Sequence record: NC_054911.1
Source: Escherichia phage ECO4
Reading direction: 5' to 3' (one strand)
Length of the DNA: 64,000 nt
The position numbers and the translations under genes are program-made. Shown in pieces: positions 7,869-45,402 of the stretch; position 1 is the first letter of the stretch; every line of letters begins with the position of its first letter. Under the pieces are notes generated by a model, which was not told the DNA's origin, did not search any database, and was given only the letters and a program-made list of their open reading frames with translations.

Positions 7869-11009
<3,141 letters not shown>

Positions 11010-35164: not shown

Positions 35165-35194
35165 ACTATAACACAACACGAGGGACTTGTAAAC
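35165..35194 (-). promoter_or_regulatory. T4 early-type promoter (GTTTAC -35, TATAGT -10), copy A of the 54-bp cassette
   Basis: Coding-strand GTTTAC, 18 nt, TATAGT, then leader and GAGGA SD to ATG 35133. Confidence 0.6.
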
Positions 35195-37251
35195 TACATT
35201 TTGAACTTTTTAGACATTCCGTTGATGTTAACCAAAGAAGCTAAGATTTGAGAAACTTCGTTTTCCTCTTCTTTTGATTCTTCTACAAGGAATTGATTAA
35301 ATCCAGCCATTGGACGAACTTCACCAGTTTCCATTAGATGGTCGCCATCATATACTGATTCTTCTAATTGTTCAGAAGGAGGAACGATTGTACCTTCGAT
35401 TAGATACTTGTTATAAGCAGTTTCTTTCATAAAGTAAGTACTTACTTTATTAATCTTCAGTAAAATTCCACGTGGTAGAATAACTTCAGCTTCTGATGGA
35501 AATCCTGACAAATGACCTGGAACGATAACTTTAACTCGTTCAGCTCCTTTAATTACCATACCCACGCTAGTTTCAGCATCTTCATTAGCATATGTAGAAT
35601 GACTACCCATATGCATCAAATCTTCTGCATCAACGGAACCTTCTCCTTCACCAGAAAATACTGCTCCGGAATCATCTAAGGCCATATAATTTTTACCATA
35701 CTCACCAAAGATATTTGGTTTAAGTGATGTAGATACGAAGTTCTTGAAATAGAACATTTTATTTTCAATGTTATGACGCAAAGTTTTAAAAGTAACTTCT
35801 TGTCCACGGTAAAGTGTAGTTCCTGGAGGAAGAACTGAACCTTTAGCAAACGCAGAATCCATAGTCTCGATGTGCTTAATAGCGCGCTCCATGTATTCTT
35901 CACGTGTAGAATCAGGTTTACCTAAAAGGAATGAGTTCATTTCAACATACGAATCTGCACAATAATCTTCAATTACATCAGATTCAGCCTGAGTCAATCC
36001 TTTTGGAGTTACTTCAGTGCTTGCATATTCATACGCCTGAGCAGCGGATTCATCAATTAATTTATAAATGCCATTCATGACAAATTGAATAATAGCTGTC
36101 TTTTCATCTGGCGTAGCTTTAGAACCTTTAACTAAATCATTGACAATTTTCTTAATAACATCAAAGCTATTAGAAATATTAATGTCAGCAAGATCGCTTA
36201 AAATTTTATCAGTTTTATAATCAAAAAATTCTTTATTCTTTAAATATTCTTGAGAACTTTGATATGTTATATCGCTCTGCAACTTGATAGATGGATCACG
36301 TAAACGTGCATGGGCTAATGCAATATGATTTCGGAAGCTTTCTAGTTCATAATCACTAGATTTAAAACGAGAAGCACTCCTCATACCACCGATAGCTCCT
36401 TTGCCGAAGTTTGAACCAATCTGAATAACGCCAGAGTTCATTGGTCCTTCTGCTTTATATACCGGAACTTTAGATTCAAACTCTTGATATTTCTTAGCAG
36501 CAAAGCTATCACCCTGAAGTGAAGCATCAACAGTAGAATATTGAGCTTGTGCTGCTAATCGACGACTAATTTTAGTTTTCTGAATAACAGCTTGATCCGT
36601 ACGCTTATCATTTTCTAAAGCAATAGAAGCAGCAACTGCGACAGCTTTAGGAACAGCATTACCTGTTTTAACGTCTACATAAACATCACCGACTTTCGAT
36701 TCAACTTTTGTGAATAACTCAGTTGAAATAGGAGGTACACCTGGAATGTCTTCTAAATTGGCATTTTTACGGTAAACCATAATATATGCATATTTCTTAT
36801 CATAGTCCCAGATTTCCTTTAAAAGAACATATCGACCTGCTCCTTTAGTACGTACTAAACGGTCAGCAATAACTTGCATTTGACGAGCAGCGCCATTTGT
36901 TTTACTTTTTAGTACGCGGAATAGGCATGCATCAATTTTATACTGTTTCATTGTTTGAAGAGCAGTATCAAAAACCGCATTAATGACACCAATTGGATTT
37001 CCACCCAAATTTTTAAGCTTAACTAACGATAATTTCTCATTAACACCTATCATTACGATATGCATCATTTTGTCGCCTGGCTTAACGTTTTTATTCGTAT
37101 CACCGCCAGAGGTGTATGTACAAAATCGAAATCCAGGAAGAACGCTTTCTTCACCGGCTTGAATAGCAAAAATTTGAGGTATTTTATGCTTAGGATTTAA
37201 GTTAACAACCGGCGCCGAAGCGCCGTCAAATAATTCTGTAATAAGTTCCAT
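35194..37251 (-). CDS. Alt-family mono-ADP-ribosyltransferase paralogue (685 aa)
   Basis: N-terminus MELITELFDGASAPVVNLNP shared with the upstream paralogue; C-terminal ART signature (Arg in TLYRGQ, STS in FVSTSL, catalytic EAE in EAEVILPRG). Confidence 0.85.
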   Translation of the reverse strand: MELITELFDGASAPVVNLNPKHKIPQIFAIQAGEESVLPGFRFCTYTSGGDTNKNVKPGDKMMHIVMIGVNEKLSLVKLKNLGGNPIGVINAVFDTALQTMKQYKIDACLFRVLKSKTNGAARQMQVIADRLVRTKGAGRYVLLKEIWDYDKKYAYIMVYRKNANLEDIPGVPPISTELFTKVESKVGDVYVDVKTGNAVPKAVAVAASIALENDKRTDQAVIQKTKISRRLAAQAQYSTVDASLQGDSFAAKKYQEFESKVPVYKAEGPMNSGVIQIGSNFGKGAIGGMRSASRFKSSDYELESFRNHIALAHARLRDPSIKLQSDITYQSSQEYLKNKEFFDYKTDKILSDLADINISNSFDVIKKIVNDLVKGSKATPDEKTAIIQFVMNGIYKLIDESAAQAYEYASTEVTPKGLTQAESDVIEDYCADSYVEMNSFLLGKPDSTREEYMERAIKHIETMDSAFAKGSVLPPGTTLYRGQEVTFKTLRHNIENKMFYFKNFVSTSLKPNIFGEYGKNYMALDDSGAVFSGEGEGSVDAEDLMHMGSHSTYANEDAETSVGMVIKGAERVKVIVPGHLSGFPSEAEVILPRGILLKINKVSTYFMKETAYNKYLIEGTIVPPSEQLEESVYDGDHLMETGEVRPMAGFNQFLVEESKEEENEVSQILASLVNINGMSKKFKM

Positions 37252-37254
37252 GAT

Positions 37255-39351
37255 TTATCCTTGAACGAACTTGTAAGGCATGTTTGTAATATCTATGCAA
37301 GACGCAATAATTCCAAGAGATGATTCTACTTTCTGTTTAACATTTGATGAAACAAATGATGCAAAGTCAACTCTATCTTCTATTTCAATATCACCTGTCA
37401 TTGCAACTACTTCACCGGTTTCCATTAAATGGTCTCCGTCATAGATTACCGATTCGGTGAGCTCTTCCGTGGTCATAACTTCAGCTTGAATGAGTTTTGT
37501 ATTATTAGATGTTGTTCCGTCATTATTAGAAGCATCAGTTATTTTATTAACTTTGACCATCAATCCACGCGGTAGAATAACTTCAGCTTCTGTTGCTATT
37601 CCGAGACTTCCTGGATATACAACATTAACTTTATGAGCTCCATCAATTGCCCATCCTATTTGAACTTTAACGTATTCAGGATTTTCTTTATACGCTCTTA
37701 TTTCGTTTGGATTAATAGTTATTCCTTCTTCATTTTTATCAACTGTTAATTCATTGCGAGCTTCTGGTTCTAAAAGACCAATACCAGCATGTGTGATTCC
37801 AAAACGTCCAAAAATGATAGGAGTTAAAGAAGTAGATACAAAATTTCTGAAGTAGAACACTTTATTTTTAACTAACGCTTCATATATAGGAGCAGTCATA
37901 CTTTGAGCACGATAAACTGTAATGCCTTCTGGTATACGGTCACCATTTTCAAAAGCTGAATCTAAGTTATTTATAGCAGATTCAATTTCTTTTTCACTCA
38001 TTACATCATATCGTTCTGGATTGTAACGACCTAAAAGAAGATTATTGATGTCAGTATATCCTGAACCGCAATATTCTCTAATGCCACGCTTTTGTGATGG
38101 AGTATATTTAGAACCATCGCGGGCAATAGTAATATCAATCATTGGACCAGCACCAATTCCAGAAAAACTGTAAATCATTCGTTTGAGGAATTTAGTTTTT
38201 GCTGCGTTCCAGGAATTTTTAGTTATTTCTTCCCAGACTTCATCTGGTTGTCCTTTACGATTTTTATTATGATTAGCAAGCCATTTATCTTTATAATCTT
38301 CAAAGAATTGATTTACAGCTGCTGCGTATTTCTCTAAACATTTTATTGAAGTAGTTGGTTCATTTTTAATTGCATTAAAAATTACTTCTTTAATTTTTTC
38401 TGAAACTTCACCGACTTGACTCATTGGAAAGAATTTATAATCATAGTGAAGTTCATCTGCCGTTCCTTCAGCAATAATTTTTGCTGCCTTTGTTTTAGAA
38501 GCTAATGAATTAATTCCAATTTTCATTTCTTCTGCTTCGGGAATTAAAGGTGCAGTAGCTGGTTTATTAAAATTAGCTGCTGTAGATTCATACTTCTGGA
38601 ATAATTCACTTTCAAATCTAGAAGATTCCAATGACTGACTTTGTGCAATTGCTCTACGGGAAATTTTAACTTTAACGATTACGGCTTGGTCAGAACGTTT
38701 ATCATTTTCTTGTGCAATAGATGCAGCAATTGCCTCATTTTTGGTTACTTGAGCTCCAGTATCTTTATTGATATAAACATCACCGACCTTCGATTCAACT
38801 TTAGTAAAAAGCTCGGTGCTAATTTCTGGAACTCCTGGAATGTCTTCTAGTGATACATTTTTACGATGTATAAGAATATATGCATACTTTTTATCGTAAT
38901 CCCAGAGTTCCTTAAGAAGGACGTATCTGCCACCTGAACGACTGCGGATGAGTCTATCAGCAATAAGTTGAATTTGTCGAGCTTGACCGGCGGTTTTAGA
39001 CTTAAGAATACGAAGCATGCAGGCATCAATTTTATATTGACGCATTGTTTGCATTGCAACAGTAAAAACTGAATTGATATAATTAATCGGGCTTGGACCA
39101 AGACCTTTTAATTTAGCAATTGAACCTTTAGCAGTTAATGTAAAAGGAACAATGTGCATCATTTTATCGCCCATCTTTAAATCACGATTAGTATCACCTC
39201 CAGATGTATAGGTACATAAACGAAAGCCTGGTTGTTCAATTGCATCATCAACATGAACTGAAAAAATTTGTGGTATTTTCTTCTTTGGATTTAAGTTTGT
39301 AATCGGAAGAGTAGTATCTTCGTCAAATAATTCTGTAATGAGTTCCATCAT
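37255..39351 (-). CDS. alt: Alt ADP-ribosyltransferase (698 aa), packaged internal head protein
   Basis: N-terminus MMELITELFDEDTTLPITNLNP; R-S-E ART motifs (TVYRAQ, FVSTSL, EAEVILPRG); late TATAAATA promoter upstream; position next to gene 30. Confidence 0.88.
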   Translation of the reverse strand: MMELITELFDEDTTLPITNLNPKKKIPQIFSVHVDDAIEQPGFRLCTYTSGGDTNRDLKMGDKMMHIVPFTLTAKGSIAKLKGLGPSPINYINSVFTVAMQTMRQYKIDACMLRILKSKTAGQARQIQLIADRLIRSRSGGRYVLLKELWDYDKKYAYILIHRKNVSLEDIPGVPEISTELFTKVESKVGDVYINKDTGAQVTKNEAIAASIAQENDKRSDQAVIVKVKISRRAIAQSQSLESSRFESELFQKYESTAANFNKPATAPLIPEAEEMKIGINSLASKTKAAKIIAEGTADELHYDYKFFPMSQVGEVSEKIKEVIFNAIKNEPTTSIKCLEKYAAAVNQFFEDYKDKWLANHNKNRKGQPDEVWEEITKNSWNAAKTKFLKRMIYSFSGIGAGPMIDITIARDGSKYTPSQKRGIREYCGSGYTDINNLLLGRYNPERYDVMSEKEIESAINNLDSAFENGDRIPEGITVYRAQSMTAPIYEALVKNKVFYFRNFVSTSLTPIIFGRFGITHAGIGLLEPEARNELTVDKNEEGITINPNEIRAYKENPEYVKVQIGWAIDGAHKVNVVYPGSLGIATEAEVILPRGLMVKVNKITDASNNDGTTSNNTKLIQAEVMTTEELTESVIYDGDHLMETGEVVAMTGDIEIEDRVDFASFVSSNVKQKVESSLGIIASCIDITNMPYKFVQG

Positions 39352-39371
39352 ATCCTCTCTAGTGTTTATTC

Positions 39372-39379
39372 TATTTATA
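39372..39379 (-). promoter_or_regulatory. T4 late promoter TATAAATA for alt
   Basis: Exact TATAAATA on the coding strand 20 nt before the alt ATG, just after a UUCG hairpin. Confidence 0.65.
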
Positions 39380-39384
39380 AAATT

Positions 39385-39403
39385 AAAGGCCCGAAGGCCT
39401 TTA
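39385..39403 (-). terminator. UUCG hairpin between the 62-aa ORF and the alt late promoter
   Basis: Coding-strand AAAGGCC-TTCG-GGCCTTT followed by AATTTTATAAATA. Confidence 0.5.
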
Positions 39404-39589
39404 ATAATCTATTGGTAATAGAGTACGATATATTTCAAACTTTGGACCTTTTTCATAAGCATCAAAAGTTTCTGTGAATTTATTATAAGCATATGCATCT
39501 ATAAATTCAATCATGATTTGCGATACAGAAGTAGAAACATCTCCACCTTCTTTTTGAGCCACGACAATTGTTTCTAAGTAAGCTTTCAT
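39401..39589 (-). CDS. hypothetical small protein coupled to the DNA ligase gene
   Basis: 62-aa ORF, start overlaps gp30 stop; followed by a UUCG-type hairpin. Confidence 0.6.
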   Translation of the reverse strand: MKAYLETIVVAQKEGGDVSTSVSQIMIEFIDAYAYNKFTETFDAYEKGPKFEIYRTLLPIDY

Positions 39590-41049
39590 AAACCAGTTAC
39601 CTCATGAAAATCGCCAAATACATCTTCGAACGTATTAGCTTTAGTTTTATCTTCACGTAAACGAATCGCAATTGGAAGAAATAATTTAACGTAATCGGTG
39701 CGGCCATCAGATTTTAACCAACCGTTGCATTCACACTCTAGAATTTTTCCAATATAATAATTTTGGTTTTCCATAATGCGAGTACGGTCAAGTTCATGCG
39801 ATTTTACACCAGCTTTATCTTTTAAGCCTGAACCAGCATTTACTTTAATTTTTCCACACTCTGACTCAAGAATAAATCCACCCGCTTTAGTAGGGTCTTT
39901 ACGGTGAGGATAAATTCCTACAATTTTTAAATCAACATCAATTACTTCTTTAAATTTATAAAGATTTTTTGAACGAGCATTTTCCCATAATCCATCGATA
40001 TTTTTGAGAATAATACCTTCAAGACCTTGGTCAATATACTTTTTATAAATTACCTTAGCTTCATCTAGGTTATTTACTACCTGGTTTTCAATTAAAATTA
40101 CTTTATCATAACCTGATGTCATTTGTTCTAGTTTAGAAAAACGTACATCATATTTCAAACGAAATGCAGGAAGACCGTATATTTCTACCAACGGGACATA
40201 ATCCCAGACCTGAAACTTCATGCATTGTGCTTCTTTTTCAGAAATGGTTCCCTTTAAAGATTTATTAGCGATTCCATTAGAAGTAGTACGTGATTCAGCT
40301 ACTTCGGCGAATTCTTTAGCTTTACTAATTTCAGGATAAGCATCAAAAAGAAAATCTAGGCCTTCTGGTTCCTTTTCAACTTGCTCATGGTATACCAATT
40401 CGCCATCAATTAACACACCTTCTGGATGAATCTGGCGAGCTTCTGCAGTCATTTTGATTAACTCTTCCTTGAGAAGATCTAATCCTAGATATTCATTACC
40501 AGCTCGTGATAAAAGACGAACATCATCTAATTCATCACCTCTGACTTCAGCAAAGCACCGAGCTCCATCAGCTTTTAATTGGGCAAAGGCTGGAAACTTG
40601 ATATTCTTACTAATGCCTTTTTCATCATAAGAACTTGCCAGCATTTGAGGTTGTTCAGGAATTAAACCTGGCCAAACTTTGTTTGCAATAGATACTGAAG
40701 CACCGCATTCAAGGTCTCGCATCATCACCCGACGCAAAACTTCAACATCATCTTTTTTACCGTCAGCAATATATCCAGTTAATTCCTCAATTGCCGCATT
40801 TCCGGTCAATTTCCGAGTAGCTAACGTGAATTCAATGAAGTCAAGCATATCGGTAAGAGTCAACATTCCAAAACTCTGGGTAGCAATACCAGGTTTAGGC
40901 CATTTCTTGATATAATACTGTAACCCACGAGAATAAGTCAGACGATATACTCGTTTAAGCAATTCATTATCTTTATTCTTTTCAAGAATTGCTTGCTTCT
41001 GCTTAGTTGAACCAATAGATGCTATTTCGTTCAGAATTTTAAGAATCAT
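39586..41049 (-). CDS. 30: ATP-dependent DNA ligase gp30
   Basis: 487-aa ORF, MILKILNEIASIGSTKQKQAILEKNKDNELLKRVYRLTY (T4 DNA ligase is 487 aa). Confidence 0.96.
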   Translation of the reverse strand: MILKILNEIASIGSTKQKQAILEKNKDNELLKRVYRLTYSRGLQYYIKKWPKPGIATQSFGMLTLTDMLDFIEFTLATRKLTGNAAIEELTGYIADGKKDDVEVLRRVMMRDLECGASVSIANKVWPGLIPEQPQMLASSYDEKGISKNIKFPAFAQLKADGARCFAEVRGDELDDVRLLSRAGNEYLGLDLLKEELIKMTAEARQIHPEGVLIDGELVYHEQVEKEPEGLDFLFDAYPEISKAKEFAEVAESRTTSNGIANKSLKGTISEKEAQCMKFQVWDYVPLVEIYGLPAFRLKYDVRFSKLEQMTSGYDKVILIENQVVNNLDEAKVIYKKYIDQGLEGIILKNIDGLWENARSKNLYKFKEVIDVDLKIVGIYPHRKDPTKAGGFILESECGKIKVNAGSGLKDKAGVKSHELDRTRIMENQNYYIGKILECECNGWLKSDGRTDYVKLFLPIAIRLREDKTKANTFEDVFGDFHEVTGL

Positions 41050-41315
41050 TGTTCATCCTTTAGAGTTTGGTTTACAGCTCTATTATAAATCAATTCATCA
41101 TTAAGCTCAGGCAAAGACTTATGATATGTAGTTCTAACTTTATTTCCTTGCATCCAGTGCTTAACGTAAATGAAACCTTGCTCTACACATTTTTTAAAAA
41201 TTCGTTCGTCTTTTTGAGCTCGGAATTCTGGATTACATCTAAAAAATTGATTTACGTGACCGTAATCACGTGTAGTATTACCTTCATTTTCATAAATAGT
41301 GTGAATAACAAACAT
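41046..41315 (-). CDS. 30.1: hypothetical protein
   Basis: 89-aa ORF; symbol by synteny (ten ORFs between 30 and rIII match T4 30.1-30.9 plus 30.3'). Confidence 0.7.
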   Translation of the reverse strand: MFVIHTIYENEGNTTRDYGHVNQFFRCNPEFRAQKDERIFKKCVEQGFIYVKHWMQGNKVRTTYHKSLPELNDELIYNRAVNQTLKDEQ

Positions 41316-42151
41316 TAGAATGCTCCTTGGAAAATATTATCACCACTAATAGGTCTATTATACAAATACTCTATGCCACCAGGTTTAATATAGTTCCATG
41401 TCTGAAACGGATGTGTCTGATATGGATGATATAGATTATAAGGATTAAATCCAGGCGTTCTCCAGGTAGTGTTCCAAGGAAAAGAATCGTTTTTAACCAT
41501 CTTCTCAATTAAATCTTTTATAGCTTTTTCACTATCAAAACTTTCTTTATTTTCCTTCGGCGAAAAAAGCTTATTTTCTACATCATTCCATGTATAAACT
41601 CGCTGCGCAGTTTTTGGAATATTGTCACGCTCTCCTCGAGCCATCCAATAAACCGGAACATTTAATATTTCACTCGCGTGGTCGCAGTGGTGAGCAAGAT
41701 CGTCAATATAACAAATTACGTTATATTTCTCTTTTGCCTTTTTGAACAACTCTTCTTTTGAAGAATCATGACCACACATCATTACTTCTGAGAAGGCACC
41801 AGGAAAAAGAGCATTCAAATTAAATTGACGATTCAGCAGAGCGTCAATAGAATCACCCAATGCTGTAACAGCTACAAAATTATAATCTTCTTTTAATTTG
41901 TTAATTACACACAGGGCATCTTTATATGGAGACAAGTAACGAATAAAATCTGATCGATTGTATTTTTCAATTAGCTTGACACCAAGTTCTTCATCACAAT
42001 TAAAGAGTTTACCTGGAGAAATAAATTTCTCATCTTGGATCATTTTTAAAATATGTTCTAACGGAAGATTATATTTCTGAGCAAAATAAGGAAGACCTGA
42101 TTGCCAGCTTAAACATACTCCATCAATATCAGTTAAAATAGTAGGCTTCAT
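41315..42151 (-). CDS. 30.2: HAD-like hydrolase family protein
   Basis: 278-aa ORF; N-terminal ILTDIDGVCLSW resembles HAD motif I (DxDG); symbol by synteny. Confidence 0.7.
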   Translation of the reverse strand: MKPTILTDIDGVCLSWQSGLPYFAQKYNLPLEHILKMIQDEKFISPGKLFNCDEELGVKLIEKYNRSDFIRYLSPYKDALCVINKLKEDYNFVAVTALGDSIDALLNRQFNLNALFPGAFSEVMMCGHDSSKEELFKKAKEKYNVICYIDDLAHHCDHASEILNVPVYWMARGERDNIPKTAQRVYTWNDVENKLFSPKENKESFDSEKAIKDLIEKMVKNDSFPWNTTWRTPGFNPYNLYHPYQTHPFQTWNYIKPGGIEYLYNRPISGDNIFQGAF

Positions 42152-42612
42152 AGAGAGTCTCTTAATAGGTTTAACACATCAATAAATTCAGCTTCGGTTA
42201 GTATTGTATCATCTTTTGTTAGACCACTAGCCATGCTATGCTTCAAAACTTTTCCTTTCGAGGCTAGTAATGCATCACGAAAGCCCTTGTTTTGAATCGC
42301 CGCTTCAAAATATGCATTTGTGTACAACTCTTTCCACGCTGGTGAGTATCTTGAAAACGGAACTCCAAGCCAGAAGAGGGTCCCACGGTCCTGAGCTCTA
42401 GCATAAGACCTTCCAGCTTGTTGGGCGGCAAGCCCGGATAACCCAAATACACGACGTTGCTGTTCAACATTTTTCACCTTACATCCTTGGAGAAATCCTT
42501 CAAGACCTCCAAATTGGATACCATCCATAACAAAAGGCCATTGGGCGAAATTACTTAATGCACACGATGGCCATCTAAAATTACTTCTAATCTCTAACTC
42601 AGGCATTTTCAA
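42148..42612 (-). CDS. 30.3: NADAR / YbiA-like (DUF1768) domain protein
   Basis: 154-aa ORF; LSNFAQWPFVMDGIQFGGLEGFLQGCK resembles the conserved SNFa.WP..vDG....E.f.Q..K core as I recall it from E. coli YbiA. Confidence 0.7.
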   Translation of the reverse strand: MKMPELEIRSNFRWPSCALSNFAQWPFVMDGIQFGGLEGFLQGCKVKNVEQQRRVFGLSGLAAQQAGRSYARAQDRGTLFWLGVPFSRYSPAWKELYTNAYFEAAIQNKGFRDALLASKGKVLKHSMASGLTKDDTILTEAEFIDVLNLLRDSL

Positions 42613-42805
42613 TACTTATAATTTCAACATCAGCCCAATGACCATAGCAAGGAAGACGAAATTCAACTGGCCAGTTAGGGTCCTTTTCTAATATAATAGA
42701 CTTAACTTGTGGTTCTTCATGTTCATCAGTATATGGATTTTTATCTGTTACTTTATATGTGACCTTAATGTACTGAATTCCAAAAATCTTATTAATTATA
42801 TTCAT
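42599..42805 (-). CDS. 30.3': hypothetical protein
   Basis: 68-aa ORF overlapping neighbours; symbol by synteny. Confidence 0.6.
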   Translation of the reverse strand: MNIINKIFGIQYIKVTYKVTDKNPYTDEHEEPQVKSIILEKDPNWPVEFRLPCYGHWADVEIISIENA

Positions 42806-42999
42806 ACTAATTCCTTTAATCCGTAAATAGGAGATAATTCATCACCCATACGAAGGTCTTCATTTCCATCTACCCAGGAAACAATATAAGCCTCTTTTAT
42901 TTGAACACCACTCCATTTAAATGGAGGTAGAACCTTAGAAATTAATCCAGGTATACCAACTCCCTTTAATTCAACAGTTTGACCTAAAAAGAATTTCAT
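42802..42999 (-). CDS. 30.4: hypothetical protein
   Basis: 65-aa ORF; symbol by synteny. Confidence 0.6.
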   Translation of the reverse strand: MKFFLGQTVELKGVGIPGLISKVLPPFKWSGVQIKEAYIVSWVDGNEDLRMGDELSPIYGLKELV

Positions 43000-43286
43000 C
43001 AGAACCTCATCTGAAAGCCGTGTGATTTAACATTACCGCCGCCAATATCAGAAATATTAATTTCACGCGCAATTGAAGGGTCAATGTCAATTTCACGATT
43101 AAGTTTAGCGATAGCTAAAGTATCACGCCCATTTACTGTACGGAATTCTAAAGGACAAACCACATCAACATAATTTTTAATCGATTCACTGGTAGGTTGC
43201 AAATGAGCAGGAAGGTCTTTAGGCGCCTTAGAGAAAACAACTTCACAGAAATTTTTGCGGGTATCAAAATAAGTAGTCATAAACAT
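42999..43286 (-). CDS. 30.5: hypothetical protein
   Basis: 95-aa ORF from ATG 43286 (MFMTTYFD) with GAGGA SD just after the GGGGCUUCGGCCCC hairpin; track start 43337 would read through the hairpin. Confidence 0.6.
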   Translation of the reverse strand: MFMTTYFDTRKNFCEVVFSKAPKDLPAHLQPTSESIKNYVDVVCPLEFRTVNGRDTLAIAKLNREIDIDPSIAREINISDIGGGNVKSHGFQMRF

Positions 43287-43303
43287 AGTATTTTCCTCAG
43301 TAA

Positions 43304-43330
43304 GGGGCCGAAGCCCCTGTTTTATTTTAA
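43304..43330. other. intercistronic GGGGC-CGAA-GCCCC hairpin between 30.6 and 30.5
   Basis: Perfect 5-bp GC stem with tetraloop; T-run on the + side only. Confidence 0.5.
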
Positions 43331-43692
43331 ATATCAAATTCGTTAAGAACTACATCAAAGATTGCTTCAAGATGCTCAGGTTTAGCTCTGTTACTCAAAA
43401 TATGACGAATCCAAGTTTTAACCAGAAGCTTACGATTAGCGCCATTCCAGCAAGGATGGGTCCCTAAATCGCGTTGACGAAAATCATCATCCAGAGCGAT
43501 TTTGAAGTTTGAACCTTCCATTGTGATTGAAACCGTGATGCCATTTTCAAATCGCATATAAACGTAGTTAGGAGTCATATACTGTTCAATTTCGCATACT
43601 GATCCATTTTGATGTTTCCAAAGGCAAATAGTATCAATAGAACCTGCAATACCATTAGAAACATATTTACGTTCAAAGTTGATGTAGTTCAT
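43327..43692 (-). CDS. 30.6: hypothetical protein
   Basis: 121-aa ORF; early promoter and stem-loop upstream; symbol by synteny. Confidence 0.65.
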   Translation of the reverse strand: MNYINFERKYVSNGIAGSIDTICLWKHQNGSVCEIEQYMTPNYVYMRFENGITVSITMEGSNFKIALDDDFRQRDLGTHPCWNGANRKLLVKTWIRHILSNRAKPEHLEAIFDVVLNEFDI

Positions 43693-43729
43693 TTTTATTC
43701 TCCGAGATGTTTAATTGCGGTACAGGTAT

Positions 43730-43758
43730 ATAATATCATATCCTGTACCAAAGTAAAC
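43730..43758 (-). promoter_or_regulatory. T4 early-type promoter with overlapping stem-loop (PeSL-like) upstream of 30.6
   Basis: GTTTAC, 17 nt, TATTAT; inverted repeat GGTACAGG...CCTGTACC spans the -10. Confidence 0.5.
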
Positions 43759-43760
43759 AA

Positions 43761-44093
43761 TTATTTTACTACTTTCCAGTGCTTCATGTCAAGTTTACCA
43801 ACTTTTTTCATCTTCTCAATCAAACGTTCGGCACGTTGGCGAGCTGTAACATAATACCATTCGCCTAATTCATTTTGTTCAATTTTTCCAACGATTACTG
43901 TATTCAATTCATAAATCCAACCAGTAAAGAAATTATGAACTTGAATTGTAAAGGTGAAATCTGTTCCCATACCTTCTGTTGTTTCTACTTCAATAATATC
44001 ACCTTCAACTGCCATTAAGAACCACATAGTTTCATCATATTTACCATTGAAGCATTTAGTTTTAACTGCAGCGTTCAGATTAATCGTTTTCAT
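43761..44093 (-). CDS. 30.7: hypothetical protein
   Basis: 110-aa ORF with AAAGGAG SD and GTTTAC-type early promoter upstream; symbol by synteny. Confidence 0.65.
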   Translation of the reverse strand: MKTINLNAAVKTKCFNGKYDETMWFLMAVEGDIIEVETTEGMGTDFTFTIQVHNFFTGWIYELNTVIVGKIEQNELGEWYYVTARQRAERLIEKMKKVGKLDMKHWKVVK

Positions 44094-44120
44094 TTTATTC
44101 TCCTTTGTTTGTGTAAGATA

Positions 44121-44150
44121 ATACTATCACAAAGGAACCATACTGTAAAC
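44121..44150 (-). promoter_or_regulatory. T4 early-type promoter upstream of 30.7
   Basis: GTTTAC, 18 nt, TAGTAT immediately after the terminator hairpin; AAAGGAG SD follows. Confidence 0.5.
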
Positions 44151-44170
44151 AACTTTGTGCAATCTTTGGA

Positions 44171-44199
44171 AAATAAAAAAAGGACTCCCGAAGGAGTCC
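44171..44199 (-). terminator. rho-independent terminator after the 58-aa basic ORF
   Basis: Coding-strand GGACTCC-TTCG-GGAGTCC followed by TTTTTTTATTTT. Confidence 0.75.
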
Positions 44200-44204
44200 T
44201 CAAC

Positions 44205-44381
44205 TTATGCTTTCTGCTTACCAAAACGAGAAGCATCATCTCGAAGAACCGCACGTGCTCGGCGCATGATCTTCTCAACAGTTTGATTGATACGAGAGTT
44301 CGACCCACGCTTGTAACCAGCGCGTTTAGAATCACCAACTTTCTTTTCAACTGCTTTCTTTGCTTTAACTTGTTTTGCCAT
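44205..44381 (-). CDS. 30.8: small highly basic protein (58 aa), possible nucleic-acid binder
   Basis: MAKQVKAKKAVEKKVGDSKRAGYKRGSNSRINQTVEKIMRRARAVLRDDASRFGKQKA; ATG 44381; followed by terminator hairpin at 44171-44199. Confidence 0.6.
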   Translation of the reverse strand: MAKQVKAKKAVEKKVGDSKRAGYKRGSNSRINQTVEKIMRRARAVLRDDASRFGKQKA

Positions 44382-44413
44382 TATAAATTCTCTTTTAAAT
44401 GAAAATGCAGGAC

Positions 44414-44602
44414 TTATTGGCATTGCCTGCGCAAGCCCTCAAGGGGGAACATAGGTTTTGTATATTTACCGACAGGATAACCATAAACCTCGTCAACATA
44501 CCACCAAGACTTACACAGATAACACTTTTCTGACGCATGATAGTAACATTCAAGAGGTACACCGTAAAACTGCCGGGGTCTTAAAACTATAATGATTCGC
44601 AA
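44414..44602 (-). CDS. 30.9: hypothetical Cys/aromatic-rich small protein; start codon uncertain
   Basis: 62-aa frame in the track begins at TTG with no good SD; retained only because ORF count matches T4 30.9. Confidence 0.35.
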   Translation of the reverse strand: MRIIIVLRPRQFYGVPLECYYHASEKCYLCKSWWYVDEVYGYPVGKYTKPMFPLEGLRRQCQ

Positions 44603-44670
44603 ATCATTAATCAGACAGTTCGACGGCTCCTCGATTTTAGCTCACACTAAGGCAGTGAATCTCCAATAAA

Positions 44671-44919
44671 TTACTTCAGTGTTACCACAAAGTGACGAAC
44701 TGCTTTTCGTGCAGCAGAAGCCAGAGGCTTAGCATACTTAAGTTCATCTTTTTCCTGAAGCTCAGCAGCTAATGCAGTTTGAGCAGGATTTAGATGTTTG
44801 AAATAACGCAGGATTTCAAGAGCTTCGGCTTCAACATCAATAGATGCGCCATAGTTTTCGTGACCATTATTCCATGCGTTTCGTTGCAGTTCAAGAGCGT
44901 GTTGTAATTGTTTAATCAT
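44671..44919 (-). CDS. rIII: lysis inhibition accessory protein rIII
   Basis: 82-aa ORF, MIKQLQHALELQRNAWNNGHENYG (T4 rIII is 82 aa); position upstream of gene 31. Confidence 0.88.
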   Translation of the reverse strand: MIKQLQHALELQRNAWNNGHENYGASIDVEAEALEILRYFKHLNPAQTALAAELQEKDELKYAKPLASAARKAVRHFVVTLK

Positions 44920-45058
44920 TTAAAAATTCTCGTTAGAGATTAAAACTCGGTAGTCACGTTCTTCTGAATTTCATCTTCTTTCGACAGATCTCTCAGTTGT
45001 AGACTACCACATAGAATTGTTCGGTTAACTTATTATTCCGACACCCAATTCATATTAT

Positions 45059-45066
45059 TATTTATA
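45059..45066 (-). promoter_or_regulatory. T4 late promoter TATAAATA downstream of gene 31, upstream of rIII
   Basis: Exact TATAAATA on the coding strand directly after gp31 stop. Confidence 0.45.
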
Positions 45067-45402
45067 TCACTTATAAAGACACGGAATAGCTTTATAGTGA
45101 CAAGTAACGAATTTTTGTTTAATTTCTTTTGGCTGCTTAAGACCCAGAGCTACAAAAGGATGCGGAACATTTCGAATTTGACCAACTGGAAGAGAAGTCA
45201 AATCACCAACTTCGCAGAAACCTTCAGGAACATCAGGACCGACAGAGTGAACTACACACAGTTCAGGAACTTCACCTTGAACACGTTTACCGATAATAAG
45301 TCCTGATTCTGTAACTTCTTCATCACCGGCTTGTGCGGGTTCAGAAACTAAAATAACATATTCACCGACAGCACGAATTGGTAGCTGTTGTACTTCAGAC
45401 AT
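45067..45402 (-). CDS. 31: co-chaperonin gp31 (GroES analogue for capsid folding)
   Basis: 111-aa [42 protein letters not shown] (T4 gp31 is 111 aa). Confidence 0.95.

What the first reader, a model, noticed from the sequence alone, without database searches (positions are those of the whole stretch)
42148..42612. NADAR/YbiA-like domain protein (30.3) a few kb from the Alt ADP-ribosyltransferases
The 154-aa ORF carries LSNFAQWPFVMDGIQFGGLEGFLQGCK, which closely resembles the conserved SNFa.WP..vDG....E.f.Q..K core of the NADAR (DUF1768, YbiA) family, linked to NAD/ADP-ribose metabolism and reported to reverse ADP-ribosylation. In a phage encoding two Alt ARTs about 3-7 kb away, this could process ADP-ribose adducts or counter host ADP-ribosylating defence toxins. 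An adjacent HAD-like hydrolase (30.2, DIDGV motif) could be part of the same small-molecule handling.
Basis: partly seen in the sequence, partly recalled or inferred. Interest (0 to 1): 0.5.

Follow-up and report, generated by a model that had tools for sequence, protein, structure and literature searches.

The report
T4 AdfN (gp30.3) anti-DarT NADAR enzyme

Summary
The ORF is real (minus strand, 42148-42612; the true start is most likely the ATG at 42606, giving 152 aa). The window is a T4-like Tequatrovirus, and the protein is 148/152 identical, without gaps, to T4 gp30.3.

Pfam places it in PF08010 (Phage_30_3, E 3.7e-70) and gives no direct hit to PF08719 (NADAR). Remote homology to NADAR is nonetheless solid:
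- hhalign against E. coli YbiA gives 85.5% probability.
- The published catalytic Glu36 and Lys43, the phage-clade His123 and the C-terminal helix are all present.

T4 gp30.3 was characterised in 2024-2025 as AdfN. It is an orphan DarG1-like DNA ADP-ribosyl-guanine glycohydrolase that T4 and T2 need in order to plaque on DarTG1 hosts.

The core interpretation (NADAR, counters DarT-like toxins) is therefore correct and already known. The suggested link to the two Alt transferases is not supported, because Alt proximity disappears outside the conserved alt-30 block. Gene 30.2 is indeed a HAD-fold enzyme, closest to 5'(3')-deoxyribonucleotidases, but it tracks DNA ligase rather than 30.3.

The parts
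42148..42606 (-). adfN / gene 30.3 coding sequence from the ATG start (152 aa plus stop codon at 42148-42150). It encodes a phage-clade NADAR DNA ADP-ribosylglycohydrolase.
42607..42612 (-). Probably not translated.
   Evidence: The sequence reads TTG AAA ATG CCT. The T4 annotation and the published E36/K43 numbering use the ATG.
42499..42501 (-). Codon for Glu36 (GAA). Catalytic glutamate, equivalent to PnNADAR E43 and YbiA E48.
   Evidence: Invariant in alignment A1 (E38 in 154-aa numbering). Aligned to YbiA E48 by hhalign. E36A impairs AdfN-T4. Codon read.
42478..42480 (-). Codon for Lys43 (AAG). ADP-ribose-contacting lysine, equivalent to PnNADAR K50 and YbiA K55.
   Evidence: Invariant in A1 (K45). 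Aligned to YbiA K55. K43A impairs AdfN-T4. Codon read.
42238..42240 (-). Codon for His123 (CAT). This histidine in the last beta-strand marks the phage (gp30.3) NADAR clade, where YbiA-type proteins have Glu and DarG1-type proteins have Asp.
   Evidence: Invariant in A1 (H125). It lies at the end of the last strand, E122-125, of the model. The clade rule is stated in PMC11125620, PMC11543638 and PMC12945103.
42151..42195 (-). Last 15 residues, forming the C-terminal alpha-helix. This is the segment lost in the frameshifted, DarTG1-sensitive RB69 allele. It is intact here.
   Evidence: Helix 140-153 in the model. Ungapped identity to T4 through the last residue. RB69 truncation and its effect are described.
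41315..42151 (-). Gene 30.2 (context, not shown to be part of the mechanism). It has a HAD-fold, 5'(3')-deoxyribonucleotidase-like N-terminal domain (about residues 1-200) and a variable, disordered C-terminal tail. Its ATG overlaps the 30.3 stop codon (ATGA).
   Evidence: Residues matching the four HAD motifs: D8, D10 and K132 are invariant and T96, D150 and D151 are conserved in at least 90% of 31 sequences. AF2 pLDDT above 90 over residues 1-200. Foldseek against PDB gives 121 hits at E<=1e-3, and all 50 listed are HAD-superfamily proteins; the top hit is 2jao at E 2.2e-8. Overlap read.
42599..42805 (-). Gene 30.4 (context). Its stop codon (42599-42601) lies 8 nt inside 30.3, so 30.4, 30.3 and 30.2 form a tightly packed co-directional unit.
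   Evidence: ORF list and sequence. Same arrangement as T4. phrog_2042, function unknown.

Best explanation
This is the orthologue of T4 gene 30.3 = adfN (anti-DarT factor NADAR) in a T4-like Tequatrovirus. It encodes a minimal, core-only NADAR-fold ADP-ribosylglycohydrolase.

Proposed mechanism: when the phage infects a host carrying the DarTG1 toxin-antitoxin defence, the DarT1 toxin ADP-ribosylates guanines in phage DNA and blocks replication. AdfN hydrolyses the guanine-ADP-ribose N-glycosidic bond using Glu36, Lys43 and the clade-specific His123. This restores unmodified DNA and lets the phage replicate. It acts as an orphan antitoxin mimic without binding the toxin.

Shown here by computation: orthology, intactness, the NADAR fold, and retention of the catalytic residues and the C-terminal helix. 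Shown by others for the 97%-identical T4 protein: guanine-ADPr hydrolysis in vitro, and necessity and sufficiency for DarTG1 resistance among T-even phages. Inferred: that this particular allele, which carries four substitutions at variable positions, behaves the same way.
For: Identity and orthology:
- 148/152 identical to T4 gp30.3, ungapped and full length.
- Same gene order, 30.4-30.3-30.2-30.1-30-alt.1-alt, as T4.
- The window is 97-98% identical to RB14-type Tequatroviruses.

Family:
- PF08010 at E 3.7e-70.

Fold:
- AF2 model with pLDDT 86.3 and pTM 0.83.

Sequence link to NADAR:
- hhalign of the gp30.3 profile against YbiA gives 85.5% probability, E 5.6e-6, over 98 columns, aligning E to E48 and K to K55.
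- YbiA is the top PDB profile hit, at E 0.051.
- Reciprocal sub-threshold Pfam cross-hits exist.

Residues:
- E38, K45 and H125 (154-aa numbering) are invariant across homologues down to 40% identity.

Experiments on the T4 orthologue:
- Deleting adfN in T4 or T2 abolishes plaquing on DarTG1 hosts, and ectopic AdfN rescues RB69.
- E36A, K43A and the C-terminal truncation all impair function, and purified protein removes ADPr from DarT1-modified DNA.
- The protein hydrolyses G-ADPr but not T-ADPr in vitro, and is listed as inactive on C-ADPr.
- Transposon insertions in 30.3 are lost on DarTG1 hosts.
Against: - No direct experiment exists on this allele. It differs from T4 at four positions (S2P, I53V, Q114L, I125M), though all fall in variable alignment columns.
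- There is no direct Pfam NADAR (PF08719) hit, and no NCBIfam or PADLOC hit.
- AdfN-T4 does not rescue DarT1 toxicity in uninfected cells and only weakly rescues non-T-even phages. The in vivo mechanism therefore needs something else that is still unknown.
- hhalign places His125 opposite YbiA H126 rather than E125, so the exact register of the third catalytic position is not settled by my alignment.
Confidence: 0.9

Rival explanations
1. The enzyme services the phage's own ADP-ribosylation programme. On this reading it removes or recycles ADP-ribose that the two neighbouring Alt transferases (or ModA/ModB) place on host proteins or RNA, and its position near alt reflects that coupling.
For: Two intact Alt paralogues lie 2.8-7 kb away on the same strand. 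Alt is also near 30.3 in the Acinetobacter and Proteus T4-like phages. NADARs remove G-ADPr from RNA as well as from DNA in vitro.
Against: Alt proximity is inherited synteny of the alt-30 block. In RB49, Klebsiella KpV477, Aeromonas ZHF and CC2, Rhizobium RHph_I9 and Ralstonia RSP15, gp30.3 sits with no Alt within 8 kb. The known NADAR chemistry acts on a base-linked N-glycosidic bond, not on arginine-linked ADPr. The only reported phenotype of the adfN deletion in T4 is DarTG1 sensitivity, and the gene is non-essential on K-12.
Confidence: 0.03
2. It is a YbiA-type housekeeping N-glycosidase that destroys reactive riboflavin-pathway intermediates (or similar small molecules), not a nucleic-acid repair enzyme.
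Against: The residue that defines the YbiA family, a Glu in the last strand, is replaced by an invariant His in the gp30.3 clade. The published phylogeny places the AdfN-T4 cluster nearest to the DarG1 NADARs. The genetic and biochemical data for the T4 protein point to DNA G-ADPr.
Confidence: 0.02
3. The allele in this phage is functionally impaired, like RB69's, so the phage is DarTG1-sensitive despite carrying the gene.
For: Natural loss-of-function alleles exist: RB69 has a single T insertion. Several close relatives align only over residues 1-146 in tblastn (H29-H32). This allele has four substitutions relative to T4.
Against: The reading frame is intact to the same stop codon as T4, and the C-terminal helix and all three key residues are present. 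The four substitutions fall in columns that vary among functional-looking homologues, and Met at T4 position 125 is common in the family.
Confidence: 0.04

Closest known systems
T4 AdfN (gp30.3), the phage NADAR clade, Pfam PF08010 (Johannesman et al., Nat Commun 2025, PMC11825919; Toxins 2024, PMC11125620)
   Same: 97% identical, same length, same start, same gene neighbourhood, same catalytic E36/K43/H123 and the same C-terminal helix. This is the same gene in a sister phage.
   Different: Four conservative substitutions (S2P, I53V, Q114L, I125M). The host phage carries a second intact Alt paralogue, which T4 has only as remnants.
DarG1 antitoxin of DarTG1 (BC4488-type NADAR, e.g. Geobacter lovleyi 8bat, E. 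coli C7 NADAR)
   Different: It is an orphan gene with no adjacent DarT1. It lacks the N-terminal extension, being 152 aa of core domain only. It has His where DarG1 has the catalytic Asp. The T4 protein cannot replace DarG1 in uninfected cells.
E. coli YbiA / PnNADAR (YbiA family, Pfam PF08719)
   Different: About 20% identity. No above-threshold PF08719 hit. The last-strand Glu is replaced by His. YbiA has a housekeeping riboflavin-related role, and phage NADAR is not among the NADARs listed as removing C-ADPr.
T4 AdfM (Tk.4, macrodomain) and AdfA (gp61.2)
   Same: Both are other T4 anti-DarT factors. AdfM is likewise an orphan antitoxin-like hydrolase.
   Different: Different folds and targets. 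AdfM is a macrodomain acting against DarTG2 (thymine-ADPr). AdfA binds DarT1 directly. Neither is encoded at this locus.

Membership tests
Phage gp30.3 / AdfN clade (PF08010) | Full-length match to Pfam PF08010 above the gathering score | tested here: met
   234.6 bits against a cut-off of 36, E 3.7e-70, profile positions 1-138 of 138.
Phage gp30.3 / AdfN clade (PF08010) | Orthology to T4 30.3: high identity and conserved position between 30.4 and 30.2 | tested here: met
   148/152 identical, ungapped. Flanking genes 30.4, 30.2, 30.1 and 30 are 95-99% identical to T4 and in the same order.
Phage gp30.3 / AdfN clade (PF08010) | Histidine in the last beta-strand in place of the Glu (YbiA type) or Asp (DarG1 type) | tested here: met
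   His125 (His123 in T4 numbering) is invariant in 10 homologues down to 40% identity and sits at the end of the last strand, 122-125. The register against YbiA is off by one in hhalign.
Phage gp30.3 / AdfN clade (PF08010) | Intact C-terminal helix (its loss inactivates the RB69 allele) | tested here: met
   Helix 140-153 in the model. The sequence is identical to T4 through the last residue.
NADAR superfamily | Direct profile match to Pfam PF08719 (NADAR/DUF1768) | tested here: not met
   No PF08719 hit at E<=1 for the window protein. There are only sub-threshold cross-hits: RB49 gp30.3 to PF08719 at E 0.021, and YbiA to PF08010 at E 0.0041.
NADAR superfamily | NADAR fold | tested here: met
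NADAR superfamily | Conserved catalytic Glu and ADPr-binding Lys in the E-x(6)-K motif | tested here: met
   E38 and K45 (E36 and K43 in T4 numbering) are invariant and align to YbiA E48 and K55. Mutational support comes from the T4 protein.
NADAR superfamily | Guanine-ADP-ribose glycohydrolase activity | not testable with these tools
   Shown for the 97%-identical T4 protein in vitro. Not measured for this allele.
DarG1 antitoxin (DarTG1 operon NADAR) | Encoded next to a DarT1 toxin gene, and carrying the N-terminal extension with a catalytic Asp | tested here: not met
   The neighbours are 30.4 and 30.2, with no ART adjacent. The protein is the 152-aa core only, with His instead of Asp. No PADLOC hit.
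HAD superfamily (for neighbour 30.2) | Four HAD motifs (DxD, S/T, K, DD) and a Rossmannoid HAD fold | tested here: met
   D8, D10 and K132 are invariant, and T96, D150 and D151 are at least 90% conserved in 31 sequences. Foldseek top hits are 5'(3')-deoxyribonucleotidases and other HADs, with E down to 2.2e-8. There is no Pfam hit.

The most novel reading that the evidence does not exclude
The unidentified T-even-specific factor that AdfN needs for full activity in vivo could be its translationally coupled downstream neighbour 30.2, an uncharacterised deoxyribonucleotidase-like HAD phosphatase. AdfN and 30.2 would then form a two-gene module.

For: the 30.3 stop codon and the 30.2 start codon overlap (ATGA). 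A NADAR immediately followed by an NT5C-type HAD also occurs in a distant Vibrio Straboviridae phage.

Against: 30.2 follows DNA ligase rather than 30.3 across lineages. RB49, Klebsiella, Rhizobium and Ralstonia phages have gp30.3 without an adjacent 30.2. A genome-wide T4 transposon screen on DarTG1 reported adfN and did not mention 30.2.
Probability: 0.05. Interest if true: 0.5.

Novelty: already known. Interest (0 to 1): 0.1.

Why it matters
The result confirms that a sequence-only reading can recover a real counter-defence function. The gene, its fold, its catalytic residues, its substrate (guanine-linked ADP-ribose on DNA) and its role against DarTG1 were, however, published for T4 in 2024-2025, and this allele is 97% identical. 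The practical value is annotation. Nearly all of the GenBank records listed for this region still label the gene 'hypothetical protein'; it should be called adfN / NADAR-family DNA ADP-ribosylglycohydrolase. This phage can be predicted to resist DarTG1.

Tried and rejected
- NCBIfam and PADLOC scans of gp30.3 and gp30.2 returned nothing.
- Single-sequence and shallow-profile searches of PDB sequences were only marginal: YbiA at E 0.051 for gp30.3, nothing meaningful for 30.2 alone, and 2jao at E 0.95 then 0.02 with deeper profiles. Fold comparison was needed in both cases.
I spent one protein search to build an allowed alignment.
- The promoter/terminator scan of 39300-45200 found no more sites than shuffled sequence (22 against 22.3 expected). 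I make no claim about transcription units beyond the overlapping start and stop codons.
- hhalign of the 30.2 profile against the window's own Pnk HAD domain matched only motif I (40% probability).
- I considered the Alt-coupling idea and rejected it on the basis of the neighbourhood survey.
- I did not use the exhaustive representative-protein search or the metagenome and genome scans, because the answer did not depend on them.

Full report
**Observation**

The minus strand carries an ORF at 42148..42612 (154 aa from a TTG) that contains the quoted motif LSNFAQWPFVMDGIQFGGLEGFLQGCK. The sequence at the 5' end reads TTG AAA ATG CCT.

T4's annotated gene 30.3 is 459 nt / 152 aa. This corresponds to the ATG at 42606, and the published residue numbers E36 and K43 fit only that start. 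The real gene is therefore most likely 42148..42606.

The ATG lies 8 nt inside the end of 30.4 (stop codon at 42599-42601). The 30.3 stop codon overlaps the 30.2 ATG as ATGA. These three genes are thus tightly packed and co-directional.

**Where the window comes from**

The 2.4 kb around the gene is 97-98% identical to RB14-type and other Tequatrovirus phages of Escherichia and Shigella. It matches 736 phage records.

The gene order alt, alt.1, 30, 30.1, 30.2, 30.3, 30.4, 30.5 is that of T4, and the flanking proteins are 95-100% identical to T4's.

**What the protein is**

- Pfam assigns it to PF08010 (Phage_30_3, E 3.7e-70, full length) and gives no hit to PF08719, the NADAR/DUF1768 family.
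- PHROGs gives phrog_652, function unknown.
- NCBIfam and PADLOC give nothing.

That does not mean the protein is unrelated to NADAR:
- An alignment of ten homologues down to 40% identity gave a profile whose best PDB hit is E. coli YbiA, at E 0.051.
- hhalign of that profile against YbiA gave 85.5% probability, E 5.6e-6, over 98 columns. It aligns the invariant Glu and Lys with YbiA E48 and K55.
- YbiA itself weakly hits PF08010 (E 0.0041), and RB49 gp30.3 weakly hits PF08719 (E 0.021).

**What is already known**

T4 gene 30.3 has been characterised and renamed adfN (PMC11825919).
- Recombination mapping between DarTG1-resistant T2 or T4 and DarTG1-sensitive RB69 identified the 3' end of 30.3 as the resistance determinant.
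- RB69 carries a one-base insertion that truncates the last 15 residues.
- Deleting adfN from T4 or T2 abolishes plaquing on DarTG1 cells.
- Ectopic AdfN-T4 rescues RB69.
- E36A, K43A and the truncation all impair function.
- Purified protein removes ADP-ribose from DarT1-modified DNA.
- AdfN does not bind DarT1.

An independent study showed that T4 gp30.3 hydrolyses guanine-ADPr but not thymine-ADPr in vitro (PMC11125620). A later paper lists phage NADAR as active on G-ADPr but not among the NADARs that remove cytidine-ADPr (PMC12945103). A T4 transposon screen found insertions in 30.3/adfN to be lost specifically on DarTG1 (bioRxiv 10.1101/2025.11.20.689424).

These papers also define the phage clade by a histidine in the last strand, where the YbiA family has Glu and DarG1 has Asp.

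**Is this copy a functional AdfN?**

- The window protein is 148/152 identical to T4 gp30.3, with no gaps and the same stop codon.
- The four differences (S2P, I53V, Q114L, I125M) fall in alignment columns that vary among homologues.
- Glu36 (codon 42499-42501), Lys43 (42478-42480) and His123 (42238-42240) are present and invariant in the family.
- His123 sits at the end of the last beta-strand of the model, and the C-terminal helix that RB69 lacks is intact.

I therefore conclude, with about 0.9 confidence, that this is a working adfN and that the phage would resist DarTG1. The enzymology is inferred from the T4 orthologue and was not measured here.

**The Alt connection**

The window does carry two full-length tandem Alt paralogues (35194..37251 and 37255..39351).

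I surveyed the +/-8 kb around gp30.3 homologues in nine divergent phages.
- Alt is nearby only where the ancestral alt-30-30.3 block is retained: in the two Acinetobacter T4-likes among the nine, and also in Proteus phage Pm5461, which I fetched separately through its 30.2 match. An Alt gene on the opposite strand also lies about 6.5 kb away in one Vibrio phage.
- RB49, Klebsiella KpV477 (gene located in the tRNA cluster), Aeromonas ZHF and CC2, Rhizobium RHph_I9 and Ralstonia RSP15 have gp30.3 with no Alt in range.

Proximity to Alt is therefore inherited synteny and not evidence of coupling. The known NADAR chemistry is on base-linked ADPr, not arginine-linked ADPr. I rate the Alt-servicing idea at about 0.03.

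**Gene 30.2**

- Across 31 homologues, D8, D10 and K132 are invariant, and T96, D150 and D151 are at least 90% conserved. This is the HAD motif I-IV pattern.
- An AlphaFold2 model is very confident over residues 1-200 and disordered in the variable C-terminal tail.
- Foldseek against the PDB gives 121 hits at E <= 1e-3, and all 50 listed are HAD-superfamily proteins. They are led by cytosolic and mitochondrial 5'(3')-deoxyribonucleotidases (2jao, E 2.2e-8).
- Pfam has no model for it.

Its linkage to 30.3 is weak, however. 30.2 lies next to, or within one or two small ORFs of, DNA ligase in Proteus, Aeromonas 31, Vibrio VH7D, Klebsiella SmallBear and Acinetobacter phages, whether or not 30.3 is upstream. 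30.3 also occurs without an adjacent 30.2 in RB49, Klebsiella, Rhizobium and Ralstonia phages. Both genes are widespread in Straboviridae (1,509 and 1,438 phage records), which shared ancestry alone would produce.

One point in favour of a link: in Vibrio phage 6E35.1a, gp30.3 is immediately followed, with overlapping start and stop codons, by a bona fide NT5C-family HAD (PF06941). That protein is remotely similar to the 30.2 profile, at 82.6% hhalign probability.

The AdfN paper reports that an unknown T-even factor is needed for full activity, so 30.2 is a cheap candidate to test. I give it about 5%, because the T4 transposon screen on DarTG1 highlights adfN and never mentions 30.2.

**Verdict**

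The feature is an ordinary, intact copy of an already characterised anti-defence gene. Novelty: already known. Interest: low.

The useful outputs are a corrected start codon, a firm functional annotation for a gene that nearly all of the listed GenBank records still call hypothetical, and the side observation on 30.2.

Noticed in passing
window 35194-37251 (-) and 37255-39351 (-): The window has two tandem, full-length Alt ADP-ribosyltransferase paralogues (685 and 698 aa). The upstream-encoded one (37255-39351) is 71% identical to T4 Alt. The other is only 41% identical to T4 Alt, but its first ~116 residues are 95-98% identical to T4's alt.-1/alt.-2 fragments. T4 therefore keeps a decayed remnant of a second Alt gene that is intact in this phage.
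   Followed up: partly
window 41315-42151 (-): Gene 30.2, which has no Pfam family and is usually annotated as hypothetical, is a HAD-fold enzyme closest to 5'(3')-deoxyribonucleotidases. D8, D10 and K132 are invariant and T96, D150 and D151 are at least 90% conserved. Its variable C-terminal ~80 aa are disordered. It stays next to or within one or two small ORFs of DNA ligase across Straboviridae.
   Followed up: yes
window 42264-42470 (-): A 68-aa ATG ORF lies in another frame inside 30.3. It corresponds to T4's annotated 30.3' ('internal translation, in a different reading frame', 75 aa in T4). I did not test whether it is expressed or conserved as a protein.
   Followed up: no
L005 8001-8959 (Vibrio phage 6E35.1a): The gp30.3 homologue is immediately followed, with overlapping stop and start codons, by a PF06941 NT5C deoxyribonucleotidase that is remotely similar to the 30.2 profile. 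This is a second NADAR + dNT-like HAD pairing in a distant lineage.
   Followed up: partly
L010 8001-12947 (Aeromonas phage CC2): The gp30.3 homologue lies 0.4-3 kb upstream of genes annotated as ribose-phosphate pyrophosphokinase and nicotinamide phosphoribosyltransferase. This is an NAD-salvage context, different from that in T4.
   Followed up: no
L009 and L004 (Klebsiella phage KpV477; Ralstonia phage RSP15): In these phages the gp30.3 homologue has moved into the tRNA gene cluster, far from ligase and Alt. This shows that the gene relocates independently of its T4 neighbours.
   Followed up: no
L007 8001-8450 (Aeromonas phage vB_AsM_ZHF): The gp30.3 homologue is annotated as two short CDSs (8001-8201 and 8238-8450), although tblastn aligns it as a single piece at 45% identity. 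It may be an interrupted allele or an annotation artefact.
   Followed up: no
phage collection hits H29-H32: Several close relatives (ESh15, PNJ-6, APCEc01, WFK; 93-95% identical) align only over residues 1-146 of 154. Their C-terminus may be altered, as in the DarTG1-sensitive RB69 allele. Not examined.
   Followed up: no
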